Part shown: in pieces, positions 6,831 through 51,428 of the stretch
Layout of the letters: every line of letters begins with the position of its first letter
How positions within the stretch are numbered: position 1 is the stretch's first letter
Source of the DNA: Candidatus Omnitrophota bacterium
GTDB lineage: Bacteria; Omnitrophota; Gorgyraeia; Zapsychrales; Zapsychraceae
DNA: 64,000 nucleotides
Direction of reading: 5' to 3'
Assembly: GCA_050250375.1 (NCBI GenBank)
Contig: JBFWOS010000001.1
Coordinates: forward strand, 219,346-283,345
Notes under the pieces: model-generated
Seen by the model: the letters and a program-made list of their open reading frames with translations, nothing else
What the model was told of the DNA's origin: nothing
Database searches by the model: none
Made by a program: the position numbers and the translations under genes

Positions 6831-7049
6831 TTAAATATTTTCTGCGCCGACACAGGGACGGATATGAAACGCCAGGAACCCGTGATAAGCGGATTGCATC
6901 TCAAATTCGACCTCCAGCCCTTCTCCCAGCGATTCAAACGGCGTGTCCCACAAACAATCCTTGTGAAAATGGGCTTCTTTACCGTCGCTGGTTTTGATCT
7001 TTCCATATTGTTCGTCCTGGAACAATTTCGAAATACGGCCTGTATGCAT
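6831..7049 (-). CDS. CSD-like small OB-fold protein
   Basis: GRISKLFQDEQYGKIKTSDGKEAHFHKDCL...LGEGLEVEFEMQS...AFHIRP follows the CSD topology. Confidence 0.45.
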   Translation of the reverse strand: MHTGRISKLFQDEQYGKIKTSDGKEAHFHKDCLWDTPFESLGEGLEVEFEMQSAYHGFLAFHIRPCVGAENI

Positions 7050-7113
7050 TTTTCAACTCCGTTCGGTTGATTGATTAAACATCACCTGGAATTTTCGGAA
7101 AGACTTTCGTTTG

Positions 7114-8148
7114 TTAGACGTGCTTTAATTTATTGAGATACCCGAACCCGACCAATTTCTTATTCTGCTCATCCCACAGCCGGAAGGTCAAAGATTTAAG
7201 ACTGGTTAAAAACGTGATCGCCTTGATTTCCTGGAACATCGGGTTTTCCTTGTAACAGCGTTCGAGAAAATAATTGGGGATGCGCGGAGACAAATGGTGG
7301 ATATGATGGAACCCGATATTCCCGGTGAACCACTGCAGGATCCTCGGCAATTTTAAATACGAACTGCCCTGCATCGCCTCGTCGACATAATCCCATTCTT
7401 CGTGCCGTTCCCAATAGACCCCTTCAAATTGATGCTGAACGTAAAACAGCCAGACCCCGGCTGAACCGGCGACCATGATAATTGGAAGTTGAATCAGAAG
7501 GTAGGCTTTTAACCCGATAAAAAAGCTGATGGTTGAGGCCAAGAGTAATATCCCCAAATTGGTCAGATGGACACTTTTAATCCCCCGCTTTCCGGCGTGA
7601 CTGTAGGGCAGGCGGTGGACAATCAAAAAGAGGATCGTCGGCCCGATGATAAAAAGACAGATCGGGTTACGGGCAAAGCGGTATTTAATCCGCGTCCAGC
7701 GGGGGGCTTTTAAATATTCTTCAACGGTCATGGTCCACACATCCCCCCATCCCCGTTCATCCAGGTCGCCCGCGTGGGAATGATGCACCGCGTGGGAGTG
7801 CCACCAATAATGATAAGGCGTAAAGGTGAGGATGCCGGTGATAACGCCCCAAAAACGGTTCGCTGCCCTGGATTTGAAAAAGGAGCCGTGACCGCAGTCA
7901 TGAAAGATAATAAAGACGCGCACCAGCAGTCCCGCCGCAAACAAACCCAAAAACAGGACCAGCCAATAGGAGACACTCAGGCATTTATACATCAGGACCC
8001 ACAGGATCACATACGGGATCAGCGTATTGCAGAGCTGTCCGATGCTCCGGCTGAGTTTGGGGTTCTGGTACTTGGCCACAATCTTTTGCCAGGACTTCTT
8101 GTATTGATCACTTCCCGACGAGATATCCATACCTGCGTTCCTTTTCAT
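7114..8148 (-). CDS. Membrane fatty-acid desaturase
   Basis: The three histidine boxes are present: HDCGHGSF, HYWWHSHAVHHSH and FHHIHHLSP. There are several transmembrane helices. Confidence 0.85.
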   Translation of the reverse strand: MKRNAGMDISSGSDQYKKSWQKIVAKYQNPKLSRSIGQLCNTLIPYVILWVLMYKCLSVSYWLVLFLGLFAAGLLVRVFIIFHDCGHGSFFKSRAANRFWGVITGILTFTPYHYWWHSHAVHHSHAGDLDERGWGDVWTMTVEEYLKAPRWTRIKYRFARNPICLFIIGPTILFLIVHRLPYSHAGKRGIKSVHLTNLGILLLASTISFFIGLKAYLLIQLPIIMVAGSAGVWLFYVQHQFEGVYWERHEEWDYVDEAMQGSSYLKLPRILQWFTGNIGFHHIHHLSPRIPNYFLERCYKENPMFQEIKAITFLTSLKSLTFRLWDEQNKKLVGFGYLNKLKHV

Positions 8149-28748: not shown

Positions 28749-29300
28749 TTATTTTTCTGATCGAAAAACTGCATTAGTTCCTTTATTTTTCATAGTCTTT
28801 AGCAAATTATATAAACTTTTTGTTTCCTTGTAATATTCAATATTGTCGAAGAACCAGGCACGGTGCATTTCTAATATATCGTTAACCCATGGTTCAAAAA
28901 AAGACCACCCTTCTTTTTTATATTCATTGTTAAAAAGATCTTCAATATAACCACCAACCCACCTAACATATACTTCATACTCTATTTTCTTATCACCTTG
29001 AAAGGAATTCATATAAGTTGATGTTTTTGTTTTATCATTAAATTCTGGGTATTTAATTGACTCTTTCATAATGTCATTCCATACGCTAGTTAGATACATA
29101 TACTTCGTGTTTTTAGCATTCTCTCTAACCTGATAACAAGTAAAAAAAAATCCAAATAAAGTTAGTATGATAAAAATGATTTTGTTGTTTTCATTGACCC
29201 AAGATATAAATTTTTTTTTAAATTTACAGAGAATAATGAATATGACTAGCACAATCATTATTAGACTTTCTAAAAGATAATTCTGAAGTATGTATAACAT
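28749..29300 (-). CDS. Membrane protein with two transmembrane helices plus a soluble domain, hypothetical (island-associated)
   Basis: The internal start MLYILQNYLL is the likely one. The gene is AT-rich. The conserved upstream motif lies at 29345-29400. Confidence 0.4.
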   Translation of the reverse strand: MLYILQNYLLESLIMIVLVIFIILCKFKKKFISWVNENNKIIFIILTLFGFFFTCYQVRENAKNTKYMYLTSVWNDIMKESIKYPEFNDKTKTSTYMNSFQGDKKIEYEVYVRWVGGYIEDLFNNEYKKEGWSFFEPWVNDILEMHRAWFFDNIEYYKETKSLYNLLKTMKNKGTNAVFRSEK

Positions 29301-29511
29301 AGCGGCCTCTTTCAAATCACATATTTTTAGATTTAATAGAAAGAAACGGAAACAGTTCAAACCTCGTCAATTTCCCTCTGTCGCATTTGGGGGACTATCA
29401 CATTCTCTGCAGTGACCTGGCACAACGGGCTAACCGTTTCCTTCTTCCTTCTTCTTACTTCCCTCTTTTAACCAATCCTTCCCGCCAATCAACCCGTCCT
29501 GTCCCGTTCTC

Positions 29512-32500
29512 TTATAAATTCTGATTCTTCGCCCACAACTCTTTCAAAAAATGTATCCCCCTCCGCCCGTAAGCATTACAGATCATATCGGCGTTTGTTT
29601 TGATAGATTTATCTTTCTCACCAACATTATAAAGGCGTTCAATGATGATCTTAATCTCTTGTTCTCGAAACATTGGCGTTGCGTACTCTAAAATTTTTAG
29701 AAATATATTACTTATACGCCTGACACTTTCCTCATCGGTAAATTTCGTCATATATTCAATCAGAAAACCAGAACGATGTTGAATTTCAATATACGGGGCC
29801 GATAGAATAATCCACTTTTCTGCGGATTCATCTATTCTATCGAGCCATATTGTCAACTCTGCCATTCGGCTTAGAAAAGAGCTGTATGCATCGCCTAATT
29901 TCTCTTTAACTTGCGCCTGCTCCTTATATGTCCACGCCCAGAAAGCCACGATTCTTTTTTTTATATCTTCTGATGGTTCATCTTGACTCTCCTTATCCTC
30001 TTTTCTTAAGGTCCTTGGAGATATTGACCAAAAAAAGCTAGCCACATCTTCCCATCGGCCTCGTTTATCATCCGCAGCATCATTAAGCATTTTCCAAAAT
30101 AAACTGTGCGTTCCGTCTTTATTATTTTCTGCCAACGCTTCATCCATCTGCAGATATCCGATGCAGATATGCTCAACGAGTCTTTCTTCTGTACGACCTT
30201 CAAATATTTTATTTTCAATAGCCTTTAAATAATTTAAACGCATCAACCCATATAAGTCCCTGTACACCCGAGACCCTGTTAAATATCCTTCCATGAACAT
30301 TTGCCATTCAAAATCATCAGAAGTTTTTTGAGCGAAAAATTTGATTTTCTCATCAACATACTCATTATCCAAATATCTCATCTGCGGCAAATAACAGCCA
30401 AACCAGATGTATCCATCAATGCCAATTGACAAAAATCTTTCAAACTTATCTGAACCCCAATTCTTTTGTTTCTTCTGAGTCGCCCTTGCCACCCTCAAAG
30501 AAAAAGAAACGTAAGTCATAACTGACCGGCCAAGGGTGGTATTAAGCGCATATGTAAGAGCGTCTCTTTGAGTGTCTGGATGCTTTTCTCCTTTTAGCAA
30601 AGGTATTATCAAATCGAATATCTGCTCGACTTTATCAAAATATTCAGGCAAAAAAGCCTTGTTATCATCTTTTGAACCATCTTCGATTAAATTAACAATA
30701 GCATCGATAATCCAGAGATATCTACCTTTCCCACTGTCTTCACCCTGGGCCTCAAGCGCCTCTTTTGTTATGTTGTCCTTACCTCGCTTAAGATATTCTA
30801 AATAAAAATCAAAAATCTTATTCCAGTCTAATTCTTTACCCGAGGCCCCAGCATCCTTCAATCCCCGTAAAATTCGATGCAAATAAAAATAATCCAAACC
30901 CACTAATGCCTCGAGTCCGTCTGTAAATTTCTTGGGTTCCTCTTTAACAGCAGCTTGCAAAGTATCGGCCAGACCTTCTTTATCGGGTTCCCCCTCAAAA
31001 ACACCATGCCAGAAGTCAGCACCTTTAAAATCCGCCAAATATTTGACTAATTCACCGATTGGCTTTTGAAGAATTTCCTCTTTAGTAACCGGTGATTTAT
31101 GGGTAATAAAGCCCCCTTTAAAAGATGATCGTTCTGGTTCGTATGGTTTGCCATCTTTTGGCTCAACTTTTTGCTTCGCCTGTTCATATAAAACGGAGAA
31201 ATCGGCGTTCTCCCTGAGAGGGGAAAGCCATTTATATTTCCAATAAGCAATTAACTTTTCATCTCCCTTTTTCAGATAATATTCGGGGACTTGGTTAATA
31301 AGTTCTTTAATCTTTGTCTTAATTTTGGGAGTAAAGGAAATGTTATGGTGTTGAAAAACATCCTGCGTCTCAACTTCAAGATCGGATTCCCCAAGAATTG
31401 TTGGAACAACTTCAAGCAATTTCTCCAACAGTTCGGAATAATCAGCCCAATATCTATCGGCACATATCAAGACAAACCGTCTAAATATGGGAAACTGAAA
31501 TTTATCAGTTAAAAATGTGTTTAATATCTCTCTGCCCCCGGCACGGTTTATCTCACATTTAACAAGCAAAACGTCTCGTAAAATATTCGTTAAGATTTCT
31601 TCGGCTCCATCGCCATTCTCAGGCCCGCTTTTTAAACTGCGGCACCATACATGGGAATAATCCGAGAAAAGCCCGGTATAGATGCTCGAAAGTTTATTTT
31701 CAAAGTTATCTGTACTCTGCCAATTTATATCTTTAGGCAATTTGCTTTTGAGTTCCGTGAGGAAAACATCTTTTGTTAAAGCGCTAAAGAAATATTGATT
31801 TATATCTGTTTCTGGATCGGCTTTATGGAGCGCCCAGAAATCTTGTCCACGGTCAATATTTCTTAACTGCTCATCTGAAAACTGTTTCACAACACACTGA
31901 TATTGTCCCTCTTGAAACCCGATCTGCCCGGGCTGTAATCCATCGATTGAAACACGCTCTACAGTAATCCGATAAACATTATTATCGACATCAAAATCAG
32001 AATAATGATTCTTCTGTTTATATTCCAATGCCCTCCTTAATCTTTCTGCCAGCCCAAGAACAACCTTGATGGAGCATTTTTTACCGATCAATTCACCATA
32101 TTTCTTGAAGGCATCCTGAATCCAATATGAATCCCAAGCCAACACAGCGTCATCTCGTCTGGTAAATGAGTATGATTTTCCTCCAGCTTTAATAGCCGTA
32201 ATTACCTCAATGATTGTTTCAGCAAAAGGATAATCAGGTGCAAAATCATCACTTAAAAATTTTGGCAAAAGTTTTTCGCCGATGTCACTTATCCCCATAT
32301 CATTCTTACTTGAATAATTCACCCAAACTGAAATCCAAGTATTAAATTTATCGATTTTGAGGTTATCTTTTATAACGGAGGATGGAAGATTTTTTAAAAT
32401 CTTAACAAAGTACCACCAAAAATGTGGATTGTTAATTGGCTTCCTATGTATGGTAAATTGAATAACATCATCAATAATTTTAATTAAATCCTTGCCATAT

Positions 32501-32775
32501 TTTGGCTGTTGACTCGCATGTCCAGAAACCTTCTCTAAATAATCAAGAACCCCCCAAAACAAAGCATTTCCTTTCACATCGAATGCGATTGTCTCTGGTT
32601 TAAAATAATTATTGTCTTGCATCCACTCGAACCAATCTAAAGAGGAAAGTTTATTTAAAAACTCTCGTTCCAAATCCTTGTCAGCACGCACCAGTAGCTT
32701 TAAACTTGCAGCGTTGGTGTCATTGTATTGTTGAATCAGGAATTCAATTTTTTCTAAATTTTGATAGTAACTCAT
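29512..32775 (-). CDS. Large (1087 aa) uncharacterised alpha-helical protein, translationally coupled to the upstream SIR2-family gene
   Basis: The ORF is 3.26 kb, unbroken and AT-rich. A GGTGA RBS lies 4 nt before the ATG and the gap to the SIR2 gene is 13 bp. No convincing catalytic motif is visible; AIKAGGKS is a weak P-loop-like match with no Walker B. Confidence 0.7.
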   Translation of the reverse strand: MSYYQNLEKIEFLIQQYNDTNAASLKLLVRADKDLEREFLNKLSSLDWFEWMQDNNYFKPETIAFDVKGNALFWGVLDYLEKVSGHASQQPKYGKDLIKIIDDVIQFTIHRKPINNPHFWWYFVKILKNLPSSVIKDNLKIDKFNTWISVWVNYSSKNDMGISDIGEKLLPKFLSDDFAPDYPFAETIIEVITAIKAGGKSYSFTRRDDAVLAWDSYWIQDAFKKYGELIGKKCSIKVVLGLAERLRRALEYKQKNHYSDFDVDNNVYRITVERVSIDGLQPGQIGFQEGQYQCVVKQFSDEQLRNIDRGQDFWALHKADPETDINQYFFSALTKDVFLTELKSKLPKDINWQSTDNFENKLSSIYTGLFSDYSHVWCRSLKSGPENGDGAEEILTNILRDVLLVKCEINRAGGREILNTFLTDKFQFPIFRRFVLICADRYWADYSELLEKLLEVVPTILGESDLEVETQDVFQHHNISFTPKIKTKIKELINQVPEYYLKKGDEKLIAYWKYKWLSPLRENADFSVLYEQAKQKVEPKDGKPYEPERSSFKGGFITHKSPVTKEEILQKPIGELVKYLADFKGADFWHGVFEGEPDKEGLADTLQAAVKEEPKKFTDGLEALVGLDYFYLHRILRGLKDAGASGKELDWNKIFDFYLEYLKRGKDNITKEALEAQGEDSGKGRYLWIIDAIVNLIEDGSKDDNKAFLPEYFDKVEQIFDLIIPLLKGEKHPDTQRDALTYALNTTLGRSVMTYVSFSLRVARATQKKQKNWGSDKFERFLSIGIDGYIWFGCYLPQMRYLDNEYVDEKIKFFAQKTSDDFEWQMFMEGYLTGSRVYRDLYGLMRLNYLKAIENKIFEGRTEERLVEHICIGYLQMDEALAENNKDGTHSLFWKMLNDAADDKRGRWEDVASFFWSISPRTLRKEDKESQDEPSEDIKKRIVAFWAWTYKEQAQVKEKLGDAYSSFLSRMAELTIWLDRIDESAEKWIILSAPYIEIQHRSGFLIEYMTKFTDEESVRRISNIFLKILEYATPMFREQEIKIIIERLYNVGEKDKSIKTNADMICNAYGRRGIHFLKELWAKNQNL

Positions 32776-32788
32776 AAATCACCTATTT

Positions 32789-33787
32789 CTATGATGGGGT
32801 ATAAGTGCTGCCCGCTAAACTTGTCGTTCTGGCCTCTAATAATTTGGCTAAAGTTTTGCATAAATCTTCTACGAAAATATGATCGCCTGTATATATCACT
32901 GGCTTAACATTCATTTGGCTATAATCATGAAAATATTTTTGCTGAAAATTCTCCTTTTGCTCTTCAGGAGCAGCTCCCAAATATTTATTAATTTCGGAAT
33001 CACTAGTTACCCAATAATGCATTTTAACTTCTCTTTTTGTCTCATTATCGGACTTACTACTATTTTCTTTTGCAATCTTAGCCAGTAAGTGTTTAAGAAA
33101 TGATCGCAAATGGAATTCCAAAGAGGACCCAAGAAAAATTATTGTGTAATTTGTCAAAATATCACACAAACTATTTTCTACGACGTAAACCCCATTATGC
33201 CTTTCATAAAGCGAAGGATAAAAATATTGATAATCTTTCTTTCGTAAAATACAAAATCCTGTGTTGGGATTGCCATGCAAATAAGTTAATGAATGTCTTG
33301 CCCTTTCTTGGGGTGGAAAGACAAAATAAAATTTCGTCAATTCTTCAGGCTTGGAACTTGTTAAATCTTGCTTCTGCCTAAATCCATCTTCAATTGGATC
33401 GTAATAGTTTGTTGTAACAAAACAATTAAAAGCACGAGCAATTTCAATATGAGTAGATGTATGCCTCGTATTTTTCGGAATTGTTTTAGTAAATAGCTCT
33501 TGATCAAATTTTTCCTTATCCTCAACATGCTTATATAAGACTCCGAATGCTTCCGGTGATTCACCATTACCATCGACTGAACACCCGTATTTTTCACACC
33601 AGGAAACATATAATCCTTTGAGATCAGGAACCCCTGTTATAGCCGAACTAATTCCGGCACCGATAAAAGCAACAAAGACATCAGGCGCTTTTGAATACAG
33701 TTCTAGCAAGGAACTGAAATTGTCCTTATTGACCTTAGAATTAAATAAAGCATCTTCCAATTTAGCTGCCATACTTATCCAAAACAC
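32789..33787 (-). CDS. SIR2_2-family (sirtuin-like, defence-associated type) protein
   Basis: Motifs FIGAGISSAITGVPD (GAGIS), FVTTNYYDPIE (TTNYD), TYLHGNPN (LHG) and IIFLGSSLEF (F.GYS-like) are present. Confidence 0.7.
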   Translation of the reverse strand: MFWISMAAKLEDALFNSKVNKDNFSSLLELYSKAPDVFVAFIGAGISSAITGVPDLKGLYVSWCEKYGCSVDGNGESPEAFGVLYKHVEDKEKFDQELFTKTIPKNTRHTSTHIEIARAFNCFVTTNYYDPIEDGFRQKQDLTSSKPEELTKFYFVFPPQERARHSLTYLHGNPNTGFCILRKKDYQYFYPSLYERHNGVYVVENSLCDILTNYTIIFLGSSLEFHLRSFLKHLLAKIAKENSSKSDNETKREVKMHYWVTSDSEINKYLGAAPEEQKENFQQKYFHDYSQMNVKPVIYTGDHIFVEDLCKTLAKLLEARTTSLAGSTYTPS

Positions 33788-33934
33788 CTCTGCGTCAGGG
33801 TGTTGAATTGGTTATAAATTTCAATATGACTTTCTATCATATTTTCGATCATCGTAACAGTAATCTTCGCAATGTAGAAAGAGAAGGGGCCAGTCCATAC
33901 CACTTCAATTTGCCTCCGTTCCCTTCTTCGGACT

Positions 33935-34816
33935 CTATATTACAAACCTTTTATCTATTTCTTGCATTCTTTTATTGTGATATTCTTTAAACCAAAACCA
34001 CTTATTCCAAATATCACGTTTTTTCTCCTTCTCGGAGCTTAATTCGTTTAACCTTTTTGAAATAATGTTATGGAAAGAATCTTTATTTGACGTATTTAAA
34101 TGTCCCTTAAAACAACTATCTATCAGTTCGGGAAGGTTTTTATAATACCCAGGGAAATGATAAATATCCAACACGTTTTCCCCATCAGCATCTGTCCAAA
34201 TTAACGAGTGATCCATCCACGCACAATCTTTCAACTTTTCATGTATTTTATCTGAAATAATTATTCTAGGCATGCGGGCATTCTTCTCCAGATTAAAGGC
34301 ATCAATTAAAGCCTGACTAAAAAGAAATTCACCCTTTATATCTTTGCCGAATGTACTGCAATGAAAATCTCCGTCCGCAATACCACCACGAGCCAATAAA
34401 TGTGTTTCACAAGTTAACATGAAAACTGTCATTGCTATATAATTTAGAAAAAACCTATAGTCGGTAACCGTGTGAATCTTAAGAATTTCCCTTTCTTGCT
34501 CTGCATTGTCAAAAGACTCAAACCCTATACTTCTTCTCGCCTCCAAATGATCACTTATTCTTTTACCCATGTCTAACCAAATTATCAAAGAATCGCTGAA
34601 CATAATAAACTCAACATCACTCATATCCATAACTAAATAGTCAGAAACTAGACGATATTCTTCTTTTTCGTGCCTGATAATATCATTGAGTTGTCCTCTT
34701 ACACTATCAAAAACTCCCTCCAATTTAATCTTAAACTCTGCCGCGGTCTGATTGGTTTTAACATATTCAGAAAATCCCAACAGGTCAATATAAGCTAATA
34801 TCACTTTTTTATTCAT
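33935..34816 (-). CDS. Hypothetical protein with a possible palm-domain nucleotidyl-cyclase-like core (tentative)
   Basis: VILAYIDLLGFSEYV resembles the class III cyclase metal-binding motif F.DI.GFT. IMFSDSLII resembles the second Asp block. RGGIADGDF...GEFLFSQALIDAFNLE resembles the C-terminal half. Confidence 0.45.
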   Translation of the reverse strand: MNKKVILAYIDLLGFSEYVKTNQTAAEFKIKLEGVFDSVRGQLNDIIRHEKEEYRLVSDYLVMDMSDVEFIMFSDSLIIWLDMGKRISDHLEARRSIGFESFDNAEQEREILKIHTVTDYRFFLNYIAMTVFMLTCETHLLARGGIADGDFHCSTFGKDIKGEFLFSQALIDAFNLEKNARMPRIIISDKIHEKLKDCAWMDHSLIWTDADGENVLDIYHFPGYYKNLPELIDSCFKGHLNTSNKDSFHNIISKRLNELSSEKEKKRDIWNKWFWFKEYHNKRMQEIDKRFVI

Positions 34817-34845: not shown

Positions 34846-35904
34846 TCACACTCGACTGGCATACCCCTTCTCCAACAACAAATTATTCAAATAAACATCC
34901 GTCGCCGGATCTGGTTCTTTTCCCTGCGGGATGAAGACGTCCGCGAGGTAGCGGTCGTATTTGTCGGCTTTGCTGGAGCGCAGGATGATAAGCGACGCTT
35001 CTTTGAGGAGCGAACGCACGAATGTTTTGGCGGCGTCGCCTTCTTTGGTCCCCGCCTCGGGGCAGTCGATATCGCGCAGGCGAAGGACCTCCCGGTGCCA
35101 GCTTAAAAAGCCCAGGTCGACGCGCACTTTAAGAGTGTCGCCGTCCACCACCTTCTCTATATAGGCACGGTAGGTGAACAGGTCTTTGGCGGTGCGCTCA
35201 CCCGCGGAAAATGTGTAGTCGCCGTTTTTGGGGCGCGACTCAACGATCGCCTCATCCGCGAACCGTGCCGAGACGCGGGGGTCGATGTCCCGAAACACCC
35301 CGAAGCCCTGGTCCAGGAGCAAGGCGCGCGCCTCGGGGTTGTCGCCCAGGGCCGGCCTCGACACAAAGCGGTAGGTGTAAAGCGTGCCGCGGGAAGGGGT
35401 CAAGGGAGCATTTGGCCGGCCGTAATGCGCCGGCTCTTCTGAACGGACCAGGGCCCCCTCCCCTGACGGGCGAATCTTGACCCGCGCCTGCAGTTCCTTG
35501 GATGACCAGCCGTTTCGCCCGGCTTTCTCCTCGATCAACAGACGTTCCTTGTCATCAGGGATGGCCATCAGCTGGCGGTAATGGCTCCAGGTGAATTGGT
35601 GCCCCGGGGCACCAATTGGCGGACTGGCATAGGTCCGGGCAAACTTAAAACAGCGGTTCAGCAAGGTCTTATCGACGCCGAGGTCACGGGCAAGACGGGC
35701 GATCACTTCAACTCCATAATCCGCGCGGTCTTTATTTTTAAGGATATGCGTGTGGATGATCCGTCCGGTTTCCCAGTACGTGCGCACGCGCTCCTGTTCG
35801 ATGCGGGCCTGGCCCTCGAGCAGGGTCTTTTCCACCTGTTTGAGCAGGGACCGGTAATTGGATGCTTGAATTGTGGTGGTTTTTGAGGACATATCCCTTA
35901 TCAC
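34846..35904 (-). CDS. Nuclease with a C-terminal SNase (thermonuclease) domain and an N-terminal YhcG/DUF1016-like region
   Basis: LRLRDIDCPE...DKYDRYLADVF...NNLLLEKGYA is the SNase pattern. The gene is GC-rich, unlike the adjacent island. Confidence 0.6.
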   Translation of the reverse strand: MIRDMSSKTTTIQASNYRSLLKQVEKTLLEGQARIEQERVRTYWETGRIIHTHILKNKDRADYGVEVIARLARDLGVDKTLLNRCFKFARTYASPPIGAPGHQFTWSHYRQLMAIPDDKERLLIEEKAGRNGWSSKELQARVKIRPSGEGALVRSEEPAHYGRPNAPLTPSRGTLYTYRFVSRPALGDNPEARALLLDQGFGVFRDIDPRVSARFADEAIVESRPKNGDYTFSAGERTAKDLFTYRAYIEKVVDGDTLKVRVDLGFLSWHREVLRLRDIDCPEAGTKEGDAAKTFVRSLLKEASLIILRSSKADKYDRYLADVFIPQGKEPDPATDVYLNNLLLEKGYASRV

Positions 35905-38498: not shown

Positions 38499-38873
38499 TC
38501 ACAGGGCTTCTCCCAATAAAATCCCCAGATATAAAACCGCCAGACCGAGCAATACACTGCCCAGGACATTGACCGCGGACAGAAAAAACTCTCCGTCTTT
38601 CATCAGGGCGAACGTCTCCAGGATAAAGGTCGAGAATGTGGTAAACGCCCCCAGCAGGCCGACCATCAGATATAGGCGCGTGTCGGGCGACAACGCCAGC
38701 TTTGAGTCCGTCAACGCGAACAGAAAACCGATGATCAAACATCCGGCCAGGTTCACGATGAGCGTGCCGTAGGGAAACCGCGCGCCCAGGGCCTGGAAAA
38801 CCACTCCCGTCAGAACGTAACGCATCAGCGTTCCCGCGCCTCCGGCCAAAAACAGCCAACCCAATTTAACCAT
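38499..38873 (-). CDS. crcB: Fluoride channel CrcB/Fluc
   Basis: GTLMRY...PYGTLIVNLAGCLIIGF...GLLGAFTTFSTF is present. Confidence 0.85.
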   Translation of the reverse strand: MVKLGWLFLAGGAGTLMRYVLTGVVFQALGARFPYGTLIVNLAGCLIIGFLFALTDSKLALSPDTRLYLMVGLLGAFTTFSTFILETFALMKDGEFFLSAVNVLGSVLLGLAVLYLGILLGEAL

Positions 38874-39035
38874 ATCCCCTCCTTAAAATAAAAAACTCCC
38901 ACAATCGGATTTCCGTTGCAGGAGTCATCGGCCCCTTCATGAGCGGGCGGTTAAAGGCGAACTCCATCGCCTCAAATCGTTTAGTTGTTAGAAGTCTACC
39001 CCAAGAAACCCCGGCCGTCAAGTCCGCCGATCAAT

Positions 39036-50798: not shown

Positions 50799-51428
50799 CC
50801 AGTGGTTACGATCTGACTTCAGTTACCTGAAGAGTCGGACTTTCTCTTCACCGATCATTTCTGATTACGGCGGCGGGTGTAAAGTCTCTGCACTTGCCCT
50901 CCCCGCCACATTGTTTCGCTTTGCTTAAACATGCGAAACAGCGGGGATGCTAGCTCAGGATTGTCCCCAGCGTTTTGATTTGTTTGACTCATCAAAACGA
51001 ATCCGTGGGGATTTCCCTGATTTAGCCCGCTTTTCACTCTGGTGTTTCCACCAGAGGCTGCTAACTTTGAGCATGAAGTTCACGGTGACAGTTCGCGCAT
51101 AACATAATGCACTTATCCAATTCTGCCTTAACTTTATTCCAGCTTCGGGTATACCCTTTTGCGGAAATCGTAAAGTCTTTCTGAACCGGATCAATGTGAT
51201 GAAATTCCAGCGCATCTATACAACGATCATAACCGCAGCGTTCGCATTTCCCACCTTTATATGTCACCGCCATTGCACGTATTTTCTTTCTTCGTGCGTA
51301 AACGGCTTTAATGAGATACTCGCGCCGATCTTTGTATGTACGTTTGTCTTTCTTCACCCGATCACCCCCCTCATGCTTTTGTGTCAATTGAGACACTCGC
51401 CTTGTCTGTTTACAGACAAGGCTCGTGA
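50799..51428 (-). mobile_element. Putative group I intron in tRNA-Asn, inserted between positions 35 and 36 and carrying an HNH ORF
   Basis: Exon 1 ends in U and the intron ends in G, which is the group I rule. GNRA-capped hairpins occur near the 3' end, for example GACUCUUCAG-GUAA-CUGAAGUC. An ORF sits in a 5'-peripheral region and is followed by about 260 nt of structured core. Confidence 0.45.
51061..51396 (-). CDS. HNH homing-type endonuclease
   Basis: CERCGYDRCIDALEFHHIDPV...LCANCH is the HNH signature with zinc-binding Cys pairs. It lies inside the tRNA intervening sequence. Confidence 0.7.
   Translation of the reverse strand: MSQLTQKHEGGDRVKKDKRTYKDRREYLIKAVYARRKKIRAMAVTYKGGKCERCGYDRCIDALEFHHIDPVQKDFTISAKGYTRSWNKVKAELDKCIMLCANCHRELHAQS

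What the first reader, a model, noticed from the sequence alone, without database searches (positions are those of the whole stretch)
33935..34816. Possible nucleotidyl-cyclase-like (palm domain) protein just upstream of the SIR2 operon
The N-terminal VILAYIDLLGFSEYV resembles the class III cyclase / GGDEF / mCpol metal-binding motif (F.DIvGFT). IMFSDSLII could be the second Asp block. A signal-producing cyclase next to an NADase-type effector would suggest a cyclic-nucleotide-signalling defence logic like Pycsar, CBASS or Thoeris, but with a domain combination that is not described.
Basis: inference. Interest (0 to 1): 0.6.

Follow-up and report, generated by a model that had tools for sequence, protein, structure and literature searches.

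The report
Orphan cyclase-like gene beside SIR2 defence module
The gene really does encode a protein with the fold and metal-binding residues of an adenylyl/guanylyl cyclase. It belongs to an unnamed, horizontally moving family that usually stands alone, so it is probably not the signal generator for the neighbouring NAD-destroying SIR2 defence genes.

Summary
The 293-aa ORF at 33935-34816 (-) is real, and both quoted motifs are present. It belongs to an unannotated family of about 270-aa proteins (442 cluster representatives). No Pfam, NCBIfam or PADLOC model covers it; its only label is phrog_23933, 'unknown function'.

An AlphaFold model (pLDDT 90) matches only class III adenylyl/guanylyl cyclases in the PDB (top 50 hits, E down to 9e-7). 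The two predicted metal-binding Asp residues (D11, D75) are invariant in 66 diverse members, and the beta4 R-G-G-I-x-x-G motif is kept. The cyclase-specific Asn/Arg transition-state pair is not conserved. A family-specific C-terminal helical module carries a conserved K..WF..YHN motif.

The palm/cyclase reading is therefore supported. The signalling link to SIR2 is not:
- The closest homologues (67% and 56% identity) have other neighbours.
- About 35 family loci share no conserved partner. Some sit in type I R-M or defence islands; others are single insertions between housekeeping genes.
- The SIR2 + ~1090-aa pair (a split DSR1-like module) recurs in four other loci without any cyclase-like gene.

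Best reading: an autonomous, horizontally acquired, divergent cyclase-like nucleotidyltransferase, probably a single-gene defence or conflict gene. Its substrate and product are unknown.

The parts
33935..34816 (-). Gene for a 293-aa class III cyclase-like (CHD-like) protein, a member of an unannotated family (phrog_23933)
   Evidence: ORF and translation. Identical NCBI protein P0001. 442 family representatives. AF2 pLDDT 90.4. Foldseek top 50 are all class III cyclases. GC is 33.6% against 58.8% for the upstream gene.
34166..34816 (-). Cyclase-homology (palm) domain, residues ~1-217: beta1 (3-13), beta2-beta3 hairpin (68-82), long helical insert (83-138), beta4-beta5 arm (141-167), alpha4 (168-179), beta6 (185-187)
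   Evidence: Secondary structure of the model. Foldseek alignments of 200-240 columns to 180-200-aa cyclase domains. HMMER alignment to 3et6.
34784..34786 (-). Codon of D11 (motif Y-I-D-L-L-G-F), predicted metal-binding Asp on beta1
   Evidence: D in 66/66 members and G14 in 66/66. Aligned to the FSDIVGF Asp of guanylyl cyclase 3et6.
34592..34594 (-). Codon of D75 (motif F-S-D-S), predicted second metal-binding Asp in the beta2-beta3 hairpin
   Evidence: D in 66/66 and S74 in 59/66. It lies between strands 68-73 and 76-82 of the model.
34370..34390 (-). Codons of R143-G-G-I-A-D-G149, the beta4 motif equivalent to the class III R-x-G-[IL]-x-x-G
   Evidence: R143 63/66, G144 65/66, G149 62/66. 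The equivalence to the class III motif is my inference from established knowledge of class III cyclases.
33938..34165 (-). Family-specific C-terminal helical module (residues ~218-293) with the conserved motif K272-x2-W-F-x2-Y279-H280-N281
   Evidence: Helices 220-224, 229-237, 248-260 and 267-287. K272 62/66, Y279 57/66, H280 61/66, N281 59/66. No Pfam match.
33867..33945 (-). Stem-loop directly after the stop codon. It may be a weak terminator separating this gene from the SIR2 genes.
   Evidence: RNA fold of 33775-33945 (-): -41.3 kcal/mol, z = -2.2. The simple terminator scan did not call it.
32789..33787 (-). Neighbour, not part of the system: SIR2_2 protein, first gene of a conserved two-gene split DSR1-like module
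   Evidence: Pfam SIR2_2 3.2e-9. PADLOC ThsA SIR2 part 3.9e-8. Homologues are always followed by a ~1090-aa gene.
29512..32775 (-). Neighbour, not part of the system: 1087-aa DSR1 C-terminal-like protein
   Evidence: PADLOC Dsr1 3.3e-101, profile positions 513-1225 of 1227. Conserved partner of the SIR2 gene in L044, L045, L047 and L049.
34846..35904 (-). Upstream neighbour, 29 nt away: DUF1016_N + SNase nuclease (PADLOC candidate PDC-S02), with a different base composition
   Evidence: Pfam and PADLOC. GC 58.8%. A DUF1016_N/YhcG_C gene also precedes a family member in L007/L009.

Best explanation
The gene encodes a divergent, self-contained class III cyclase-like nucleotidyltransferase. It belongs to a sporadically distributed, horizontally transferred family found in defence islands, inside type I restriction-modification operons, on plasmids, in phage-derived protein families, and as single-gene insertions between housekeeping genes.

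Shown:
- the fold;
- the invariant two-Asp metal site plus the beta4 Arg;
- loss of the cyclase-specific Asn/Arg pair;
- a conserved C-terminal helical module;
- no conserved partner gene;
- low GC relative to flanking genes.

Inferred:
- The protein binds an NTP and two divalent metals like the C1 half of an adenylyl cyclase and catalyses a nucleotidyl-transfer or cyclisation reaction.
- The residues lost from alpha4 are replaced by family-specific basic/polar residues (R184, K272, H280, N281).
- It works on its own as a single-gene conflict or defence (abortive-infection-type) protein. On an infection cue it either consumes NTPs or makes a nucleotide product that acts on targets not encoded next to it.
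- In this window it simply shares a low-GC defence island with an independent split DSR1-like SIR2 module.
For: Fold: the AF2 model has pLDDT 90.4 and pTM 0.90. The top 50 Foldseek PDB hits are all class III AC/GC (E 8.9e-7 to 1e-4, prob 1.0, TM 0.46-0.58 on the target). In BFVD only giant-virus cyclase-domain proteins match.

Sequence: the best PDB profile hit is guanylyl cyclase 3et6, aligned at the beta1 and alpha4 motifs. Seven of 66 members give sub-threshold PF00211 hits.

Catalytic core: D11, G14 and D75 are 66/66; R143 is 63/66 and R184 64/66.

Autonomy:
- BLAST clustering of 138 neighbours finds no conserved neighbour.
- Neighbours range from HsdM/HsdS, MmeI, PLD, Fic, Schlafen, TIR, FRG and HNH to DnaX, aconitase, UbiD, RodA and SAICAR synthase.
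- On B. cereus pHT1 it is an isolated transcription unit between genes on the opposite strand.
- TM proteins are not enriched next to it: 25% of adjacent genes versus 29% of distant ones.

Mobility: the family gene has lower GC than its flanking genes in the window, L007, L008, L019 and L025. Members occur on Bacillus, Acinetobacter and Pseudorhizobium plasmids. 65 of 66 members hit phrog_23933.

Independence from SIR2.
Against: No activity, product or phenotype is known for any member. The class III transition-state Asn and Arg align to I171 and N175 (V/I/L and E/K/N in the family), so it may not cyclise nucleotides, or may be inactive. The defence role rests only on neighbourhood. Many contigs are short, several loci are purely housekeeping, and I could not compute a formal defence-association score. 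tblastn found no homologue in 50,697 phage genomes or in IMG/VR, despite the PHROG match. SIR2-domain genes lie near family members in two other family loci (Pfam count; probably L030 and L031) and on a B. thuringiensis plasmid, so some functional link to NADases is not excluded.
Confidence: 0.5

Rival explanations
1. One reading: the cyclase-like protein senses infection and makes a (cyclic) nucleotide that switches on the adjacent SIR2 NADase module. This would be a Pycsar/Thoeris-like signalling system with a new domain combination.
For: Same strand, 147 nt apart, in the same low-GC island (33.6%, 34.9% and 37.6% GC against 58.8% upstream). SIR2_2-type genes are among the neighbours in two other family loci (probably L031:4063-5199 and L030:6915-7973, judging by the GAGxS motif and clustering). 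A >1300-aa SIR2 protein lies 2.4 kb from a Bacillus plasmid homologue.
Against: The nearest homologues (67% and 56% identity) sit next to a TM/coiled-coil protein and an HNH nuclease, not SIR2. The SIR2 + ~1090-aa pair is conserved (39-68% identity, 4-nt overlap) in L044, L045, L047 and L049, and none of these has a family member even at E<=10. The SIR2 protein has no room for a sensor domain: the ThsA profile matches only over its SIR2 part, positions 22-289 of 478. Pfam finds no cNMP-binding, SAVED, CARF or SLOG domain in either partner. DSR1 defends as a single protein. A hairpin follows the cyclase-like stop codon. The SIR2 proteins near other family members differ in architecture, position and orientation.
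Confidence: 0.1
2. A counter-defence, addiction or superinfection-exclusion gene of mobile elements and phages: a nucleotidyltransferase that serves the element rather than the host.
For: 65 of 66 members match phrog_23933 and 25 match phrog_21097, both phage protein families of unknown function. It occurs on conjugative and mega-plasmids. Low GC and a patchy distribution.
Against: No hit in INPHARED phage genomes with three queries or in IMG/VR. Most loci show no phage or plasmid genes nearby. Embedding between hsdM and hsdS (L007, L030) is typical of host defence add-ons.
Confidence: 0.15
3. An ordinary regulatory cNMP cyclase, or a catalytically dead cyclase-fold protein used for binding or scaffolding, with no role in conflict.
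For: Several loci are flanked only by housekeeping genes (rodA/radical SAM, dnaX, acn, ubiD, purC). The Asn/Arg pair is lost.
Against: A dead enzyme would not be expected to keep both metal-binding Asp residues invariant at 22% mean column identity. The family is rare (442 representatives among 1.8 billion), patchy across phyla, compositionally foreign, lacks the sensor or membrane domains typical of signalling cyclases, and recurs in R-M and defence contexts.
Confidence: 0.15

Closest known systems
Class III adenylyl/guanylyl cyclase catalytic domain (CHD, Pfam PF00211), especially the C1-type half-site of heterodimeric cyclases
   Same: Same palm fold. Beta1 D-[IL]-x-G-[FY] and beta2-beta3 hairpin Asp. 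Beta4 R-x-G-I-x-x-G. The alpha4 region aligns in register: F-S/G, A, L/M-E.
   Different: Below the Pfam threshold. The transition-state Asn and Arg are replaced by V/I/L and E/K/N. The hairpin reads S-D-S rather than G-D. There is a long helical insert (residues 83-138) and an extra ~75-aa C-terminal helical module with a K..WF..YHN motif. There are no sensor or membrane domains.
Pycsar pyrimidine cyclase PycC with its effector (and the cGMP-making 'Pucsar' offshoot; only the abstract was seen)
   Same: A stand-alone small class III-type cyclase fold found in defence contexts. One family locus (L014) has a TIR-domain gene immediately downstream.
   Different: The query gives no PycC HMM match, and only 1 of 66 relatives does, at E 0.0097. 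There is no conserved adjacent effector, TM neighbours are not enriched, and no cNMP-binding domain is nearby.
GGDEF / Cas10-palm / mCpol (Panoptes) nucleotide cyclases
   Same: A homologous palm core with two acidic metal ligands, used for nucleotide-signal synthesis in immunity (established knowledge).
   Different: No GGDEF-type motif, no Pfam or PADLOC hit, and none among the top 50 structural matches.
phrog_23933 and phrog_21097
   Same: Direct sequence family membership: 65 of 66 and 25 of 66 members respectively; the query scores 7.6e-12.
   Different: These PHROGs carry no functional annotation, so the match names the family but explains nothing.
DSR1 (defence-associated sirtuin 1), for the neighbouring genes only
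   Same: SIR2 domain plus a large C-terminal region; the 1087-aa protein matches the PADLOC Dsr1 profile at 3.3e-101.
   Different: Split into two genes. The SIR2 part does not hit the Dsr1 profile; its best match is ThsA-type SIR2. It is unrelated to the cyclase-like gene.

Membership tests
Class III nucleotidyl cyclase (CHD, PF00211) | Beta-alpha-alpha-beta-beta-alpha-beta palm fold of the cyclase homology domain | tested here: met
   AF2 model pLDDT 90.4. The top 50 Foldseek PDB hits are all class III cyclases, E down to 8.9e-7.
Class III nucleotidyl cyclase (CHD, PF00211) | Two metal-binding Asp residues (beta1 and the beta2-beta3 hairpin) | tested here: met
   D11 and D75 are invariant in 66/66 members. 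D11 aligns to the FSDIVGF Asp of 3et6.
Class III nucleotidyl cyclase (CHD, PF00211) | Transition-state-stabilising Asn and Arg on alpha4 | tested here: not met
   In the HMMER alignment to 3et6 they fall on I171 and N175. The family columns are V/I/L (N in 5/66) and E/K/N (R in 3/66). The alignment is weak (E 0.26) but anchored by four conserved positions.
Class III nucleotidyl cyclase (CHD, PF00211) | Score above the Pfam gathering threshold | tested here: not met
   No hit for the query at E<=1. Seven of 66 relatives hit below threshold, best E 5.8e-4.
Class III nucleotidyl cyclase (CHD, PF00211) | Head-to-tail dimer with the active site at the interface; cNMP + PPi formation | not testable with these tools
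   No multimer prediction, model coordinates or biochemistry were available.
Pycsar | PycC-type cyclase recognised by the PycC profile | tested here: not met
   PADLOC gives no hit for the query, and 1 of 66 relatives at E 0.0097.
Pycsar | Adjacent effector with a cNMP-binding domain fused to TM or TIR | tested here: not met
   No conserved neighbour. TM neighbours are not enriched. Pfam finds no cNMP-binding domain in the window neighbours. One TIR neighbour among ~35 loci.
Thoeris | TIR (ThsB) signal producer plus ThsA with SIR2 and a SLOG/STALD sensor domain | tested here: not met
   No TIR gene in the island. The SIR2 protein matches only positions 22-289 of the 478-position ThsA profile and is 332 aa long.
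CBASS | CD-NTase (Pol-beta-type fold) cyclase | tested here: not met
   The fold is CHD palm, not Pol-beta. No PADLOC CBASS hit.
GGDEF / mCpol | GGDEF-type hairpin motif and a profile match | tested here: not met
   The hairpin is F-S-D-S. No Pfam or PADLOC hit. None among the top 50 fold matches.
DSR1 (neighbouring genes) | A single polypeptide with an N-terminal SIR2 domain and a large C-terminal domain | tested here: not met
   There are two ORFs, of 332 aa and 1087 aa. The C-terminal part matches Dsr1 at 3.3e-101. The two-gene form is conserved in four other loci.

The most novel reading that the evidence does not exclude
The family is a new kind of single-gene immune or conflict protein. 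In it, a C1-like cyclase half-site is completed by its own C-terminal K/H/N helix and makes a nucleotide product (cyclic or linear) that is not yet known from bacterial immunity. Less likely, that product feeds into NADase effectors such as the adjacent split DSR1-like module, which would add a cyclase-to-SIR2 signalling axis.
Probability: 0.25. Interest if true: 0.75.

Novelty: new variant of a known kind. Interest (0 to 1): 0.45.

Why it matters
Class III-type cyclases are already known to generate immune signals in Pycsar. This family keeps the metal centre of that fold, discards the cyclase-specific transition-state residues, and adds its own C-terminal module. It moves between genomes as a lone gene, often into restriction-modification operons and defence islands. 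Pfam, NCBIfam and PADLOC do not detect it. If it is active, it would be either a new nucleotide-producing or nucleotide-consuming single-gene defence, or a new chemistry on the cyclase palm. It is small, soluble and has cultured-host homologues (Bacillus cereus-group plasmids), so it is easy to test. The analysis also warns against reading 'cyclase next to NADase' as a signalling system from adjacency alone.

Tried and rejected
Searches that found nothing or little:
- Pfam, NCBIfam and PADLOC on the query gave nothing.
- The PDB sequence search with the 3-sequence profile gave nothing.
- The word-indexed homologue search found only 3, and later 16, relatives. The exhaustive HMMER search was needed to see the family.
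- The search for related loci with the 66-sequence alignment failed because no stretch was conserved enough. The genome-contig scan gave only 2 loci and viral contigs gave none.
- tblastn against phage genomes with three queries gave nothing.
- Source names for ten representatives were all 'hypothetical' or absent.
- Six literature searches found no paper on this family.

- The Pucsar preprint could not be opened.

Attempts to pin down which neighbours are the SIR2_2 hits:
- phmmer and hmmsearch with the window's SIR2 family found none.
- My hhalign loop gave no usable signal, not even for the window's own SIR2, and is probably a parsing or format fault.
- PDB searches were uninformative.
- The identification of L031:4063-5199 and L030:6915-7973 therefore rests on the GAGxS motif and clustering only.

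Hypotheses considered and rejected:
- A conserved TM effector, as in Pycsar: the Bacillus and L001 homologues have TM/coiled-coil genes downstream, but the two proteins gave no BLAST match to each other, and TM proteins are no more frequent next to the gene than farther away.
- A DUF1016 partnership: seen in only 2 of ~35 loci, and in the window the two genes differ by 25 GC points.

Full report
**1. The observation**

The ORF at 33935-34816 on the minus strand encodes 293 aa. Its translation contains the two quoted strings, VILAYIDLLGFSEYV (residues 5-19) and IMFSDSLII (residues 71-79). The identical protein is called as a hypothetical protein in a Candidatus Omnitrophota MAG.

It lies 29 nt downstream of a DUF1016_N + SNase nuclease gene (34846-35904). 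It lies 147-162 nt upstream of a SIR2_2 gene (32789-33787), which is followed by a 1087-aa gene (29512-32775) and a 203-aa membrane-protein ORF.

Base composition changes sharply at about 34830. The upstream nuclease gene has 58.8% GC. The cyclase-like gene has 33.6%, SIR2 34.9%, the 1087-aa gene 37.6% and the TM ORF 27.3%. The gene is therefore part of a low-GC, presumably acquired, island.

**2. What the protein is**

Pfam, NCBIfam and PADLOC give no hit for it. Its only label is phrog_23933, 'unknown function', at E 7.6e-12.

The word-indexed search found three relatives. An exhaustive HMMER profile search of 1.84 billion cluster representatives found 442 at E<=1e-3 and 50 at E<=1e-10. Nearly all are stand-alone proteins of 250-300 aa.

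In an alignment of 66 diverse members (mean column identity 22%), conservation is as follows:
- D11, G14 and D75 are invariant.
- R143 (63/66), G144 (65/66), G149 (62/66), R184 (64/66), K272 (62/66), H280 (61/66), N281 (59/66), Y279 (57/66) and S74 (59/66) are nearly invariant.

Evidence that this is a cyclase fold:
- Seven of 66 members give sub-threshold hits to PF00211, the adenylate/guanylate cyclase domain (best E 5.8e-4).
- The family profile's best PDB sequence hit is a guanylyl cyclase (3et6, E 0.26). It aligns aylDILGYse with FSDIVGFTE, and FifSkAlvdAvele with CLFGDTVNTASRME.
- AlphaFold2 with the 66-sequence alignment gave a confident model (mean pLDDT 90.4, pTM 0.90).
- Foldseek against the PDB returned only class III adenylyl/guanylyl cyclases in the top 50. 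These include eukaryotic sGC, mammalian AC C1/C2, Rv1625c, CyaB, CyaC, Cya2 and rhodopsin-GCs. E values run from 8.9e-7 to 1e-4, probability is 1.0, and TM-score on the target is 0.46-0.58.
- In BFVD only giant-virus cyclase-domain proteins matched.

The palm/cyclase reading is therefore confirmed at the level of fold and metal site.

**3. How it differs from a canonical cyclase**

Three hallmark elements are kept:
- the beta1 Asp (D-[IL]-L-G-[YF]);
- the beta2-beta3 hairpin Asp (S-D-S here, rather than G-D);
- the beta4 R-G-G-I-x-x-G motif.

These are the residues that the C1 half of a heterodimeric cyclase contributes (established knowledge of class III cyclases).

The fourth hallmark is the Asn and Arg on alpha4 that stabilise the transition state. 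They align to I171 and N175. The family columns there are V/I/L (Asn in 5/66) and E/K/N (Arg in 3/66). No member reaches the Pfam threshold.

The model also shows a long helical insert (residues 83-138) and an extra C-terminal four-helix module (about residues 218-293). That module carries the conserved K272-x2-W-F-x2-Y-H-N motif.

Invariant metal ligands at such low overall identity argue for catalysis. Whether the reaction is cyclisation is open.

**4. Is it coupled to the SIR2 genes?**

Comparative evidence says no.

(a) The closest homologue (P0002, 67% identical, another Omnitrophota MAG) sits between a peptidase/TM gene cluster and a 292-aa TM/coiled-coil protein. The next closest (P0003, 56%) is followed by an HNH_2 nuclease.

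(b) Across about 35 non-redundant family loci, BLAST clustering of 138 neighbouring proteins finds no conserved partner. The loci come from the metagenome scan, contig look-ups, plasmids and a Sedimentisphaerales MAG.

(c) The neighbours fall into two groups:
- Defence-type genes: HsdM/N6_Mtase (3), HsdS (2), MmeI (2), PLDc_2 (2), Fic (2), Schlafen AlbA_2 (2), SIR2_2 (2), TIR_2, FRG, HNH, DUF4365, DprA/SLOG and RelE. The arrangements hsdM-DUF1016-X-hsdS (L007/L009) and hsdM-X-hsdS (L030) occur.
- Plain housekeeping genes. Here the family gene is a lone insertion between SMC and purC, next to dnaX, beside aconitase, after ubiD, or between rodA and a radical-SAM gene.

(d) On B. cereus plasmid pHT1 the gene is an isolated transcription unit between genes on the opposite strand.

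(e) Its GC is lower than that of flanking genes in the window and in L007, L008, L019 and L025.

(f) Membrane proteins are not enriched next to it: 15 of 60 adjacent genes versus 36 of 126 distant ones. This argues against a Pycsar-like TM effector.

(g) From the other side, the SIR2 gene has 15 homologues. In four independent loci (39-68% identity) it is always followed, with a 4-nt overlap, by a 1080-1094-aa gene. These loci usually lie beside type I R-M genes. None contains a cyclase-like family member, even at E<=10.

(h) The 1087-aa protein matches the PADLOC Dsr1 profile (positions 513-1225 of 1227) at 3.3e-101. The pair is therefore a split DSR1-like module. DSR1 is reported to defend and deplete NAD as a single protein.

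(i) The 332-aa SIR2 protein is essentially only a SIR2 domain. Pfam finds no nucleotide-sensor domain in either partner.

(j) A stem-loop follows the cyclase-like stop codon (-41 kcal/mol, z -2.2). This is weakly consistent with a separate transcription unit.

**5. Residual link to SIR2**

SIR2-type genes do recur near family members. Two of 116 scanned neighbours are SIR2_2 hits. These are probably L031:4063-5199, directly upstream, and L030:6915-7973, two genes downstream; that identification is inferred from the GAGxS motif and clustering. A >1300-aa SIR2 protein lies 2.4 kb from a B. thuringiensis plasmid homologue.

These SIR2 proteins differ in architecture, position and orientation. SIR2 is also a common defence-island domain. 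I read this as co-location in islands, and I keep about 10% for functional coupling.

**6. Best explanation and rivals**

Best explanation (confidence ~0.5): an autonomous, horizontally acquired, divergent class III cyclase-like nucleotidyltransferase acting as a single-gene conflict or defence protein. Either its enzymatic output is the effector (NTP consumption), or it makes a nucleotide product that acts on unlinked targets. The C-terminal helical module is the candidate regulatory or sensor part.

Shown:
- fold;
- metal site;
- loss of the Asn/Arg pair;
- lack of a conserved partner;
- compositional foreignness;
- recurrent R-M and defence contexts.

Inferred:
- catalysis;
- the defence role;
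- the role of the C-terminal motif.

Rivals:
- signal generator for the SIR2 module (~0.1);
- a mobile-element or phage gene for counter-defence or exclusion (~0.15; PHROG membership, but no hits in phage genome collections);
- a non-conflict regulatory cyclase or an inactive scaffold (~0.15).

**7. Comparison with known systems and novelty**

The closest known systems are class III cyclases (fold and C1-type residues), PycC of Pycsar and the cGMP-making Pucsar offshoot (abstract only). Membership in Pycsar, Thoeris, CBASS and GGDEF/mCpol was tested and not met.

No paper, Pfam, NCBIfam or PADLOC entry, or source annotation describes the family. I rate it a new variant of a known kind.

It is of moderate interest. 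The proposed 'cyclase + NADase signalling' novelty is not supported, but the gene exposes an uncharacterised cyclase-fold family that is easy to test experimentally.

Noticed in passing
window 29512-33787 (-): The SIR2 gene (332 aa) and the 1087-aa gene form a conserved two-gene 'split DSR1-like' module. The 1087-aa protein hits PADLOC Dsr1 at 3.3e-101 over the C-terminal two-thirds of the profile. The SIR2 part resembles ThsA-type SIR2 rather than Dsr1. The same pair, with a 4-nt overlap, occurs in four other metagenomic loci, usually next to type I R-M genes.
   Followed up: partly
window 50816-51085 (-): Rfam gathering-level match to a group I catalytic intron (RF00028, 65.5 bits, full model length).
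   Followed up: no
window 38912-38980 (-): Fluoride riboswitch (RF01734, 55.2 bits) directly upstream of a 124-aa membrane ORF (38499-38873). The ORF is presumably the CrcB fluoride channel, but I did not test this.
   Followed up: no
window 34846-35904 (-): A DUF1016_N domain fused to a staphylococcal-nuclease (SNase) domain instead of the usual YhcG/PDDEXK nuclease. It matches PADLOC candidate PDC-S02. A DUF1016_N/YhcG_C gene also directly precedes a cyclase-like family member inside a type I R-M operon in L007/L009.
   Followed up: partly
window 28749-29360 (-): A 203-aa ORF with two predicted TM helices and very low GC (27%) at the distal end of the island. It gives only weak hits: PADLOC Drt1b/RTasTM at 0.0035 and a holin PHROG at 0.035.
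   Followed up: no
L051, L054, L056 (Bacillus cereus-group plasmids), ~6870-7620: In three Bacillus plasmids the family gene is followed by the same 228-aa single-pass TM/coiled-coil protein (93-99% identical), although the upstream genes differ (DNA methyltransferase versus an ABC-three-component system). This may be a lineage-specific two-gene cassette. The closest Omnitrophota homologue (L001) also has a TM/coiled-coil gene downstream, which gave no BLAST match to the Bacillus protein.
   Followed up: partly
L028:2041-3489; L035:1396-3256; L037:4535-6396: Some family genes are interrupted or extended. In L028 the gene is frameshifted and its C-terminus runs in frame into a DUF6988/DUF5677 domain. 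In L035 and L037 the N- and C-terminal halves are separated by inserted sequence of different lengths.
   Followed up: no
L014:1916-2974: One family member is followed, 83 nt downstream, by a 352-aa TIR_2-domain protein. This is the only locus that looks like a Pycsar/Pucsar-TIR arrangement.
   Followed up: no
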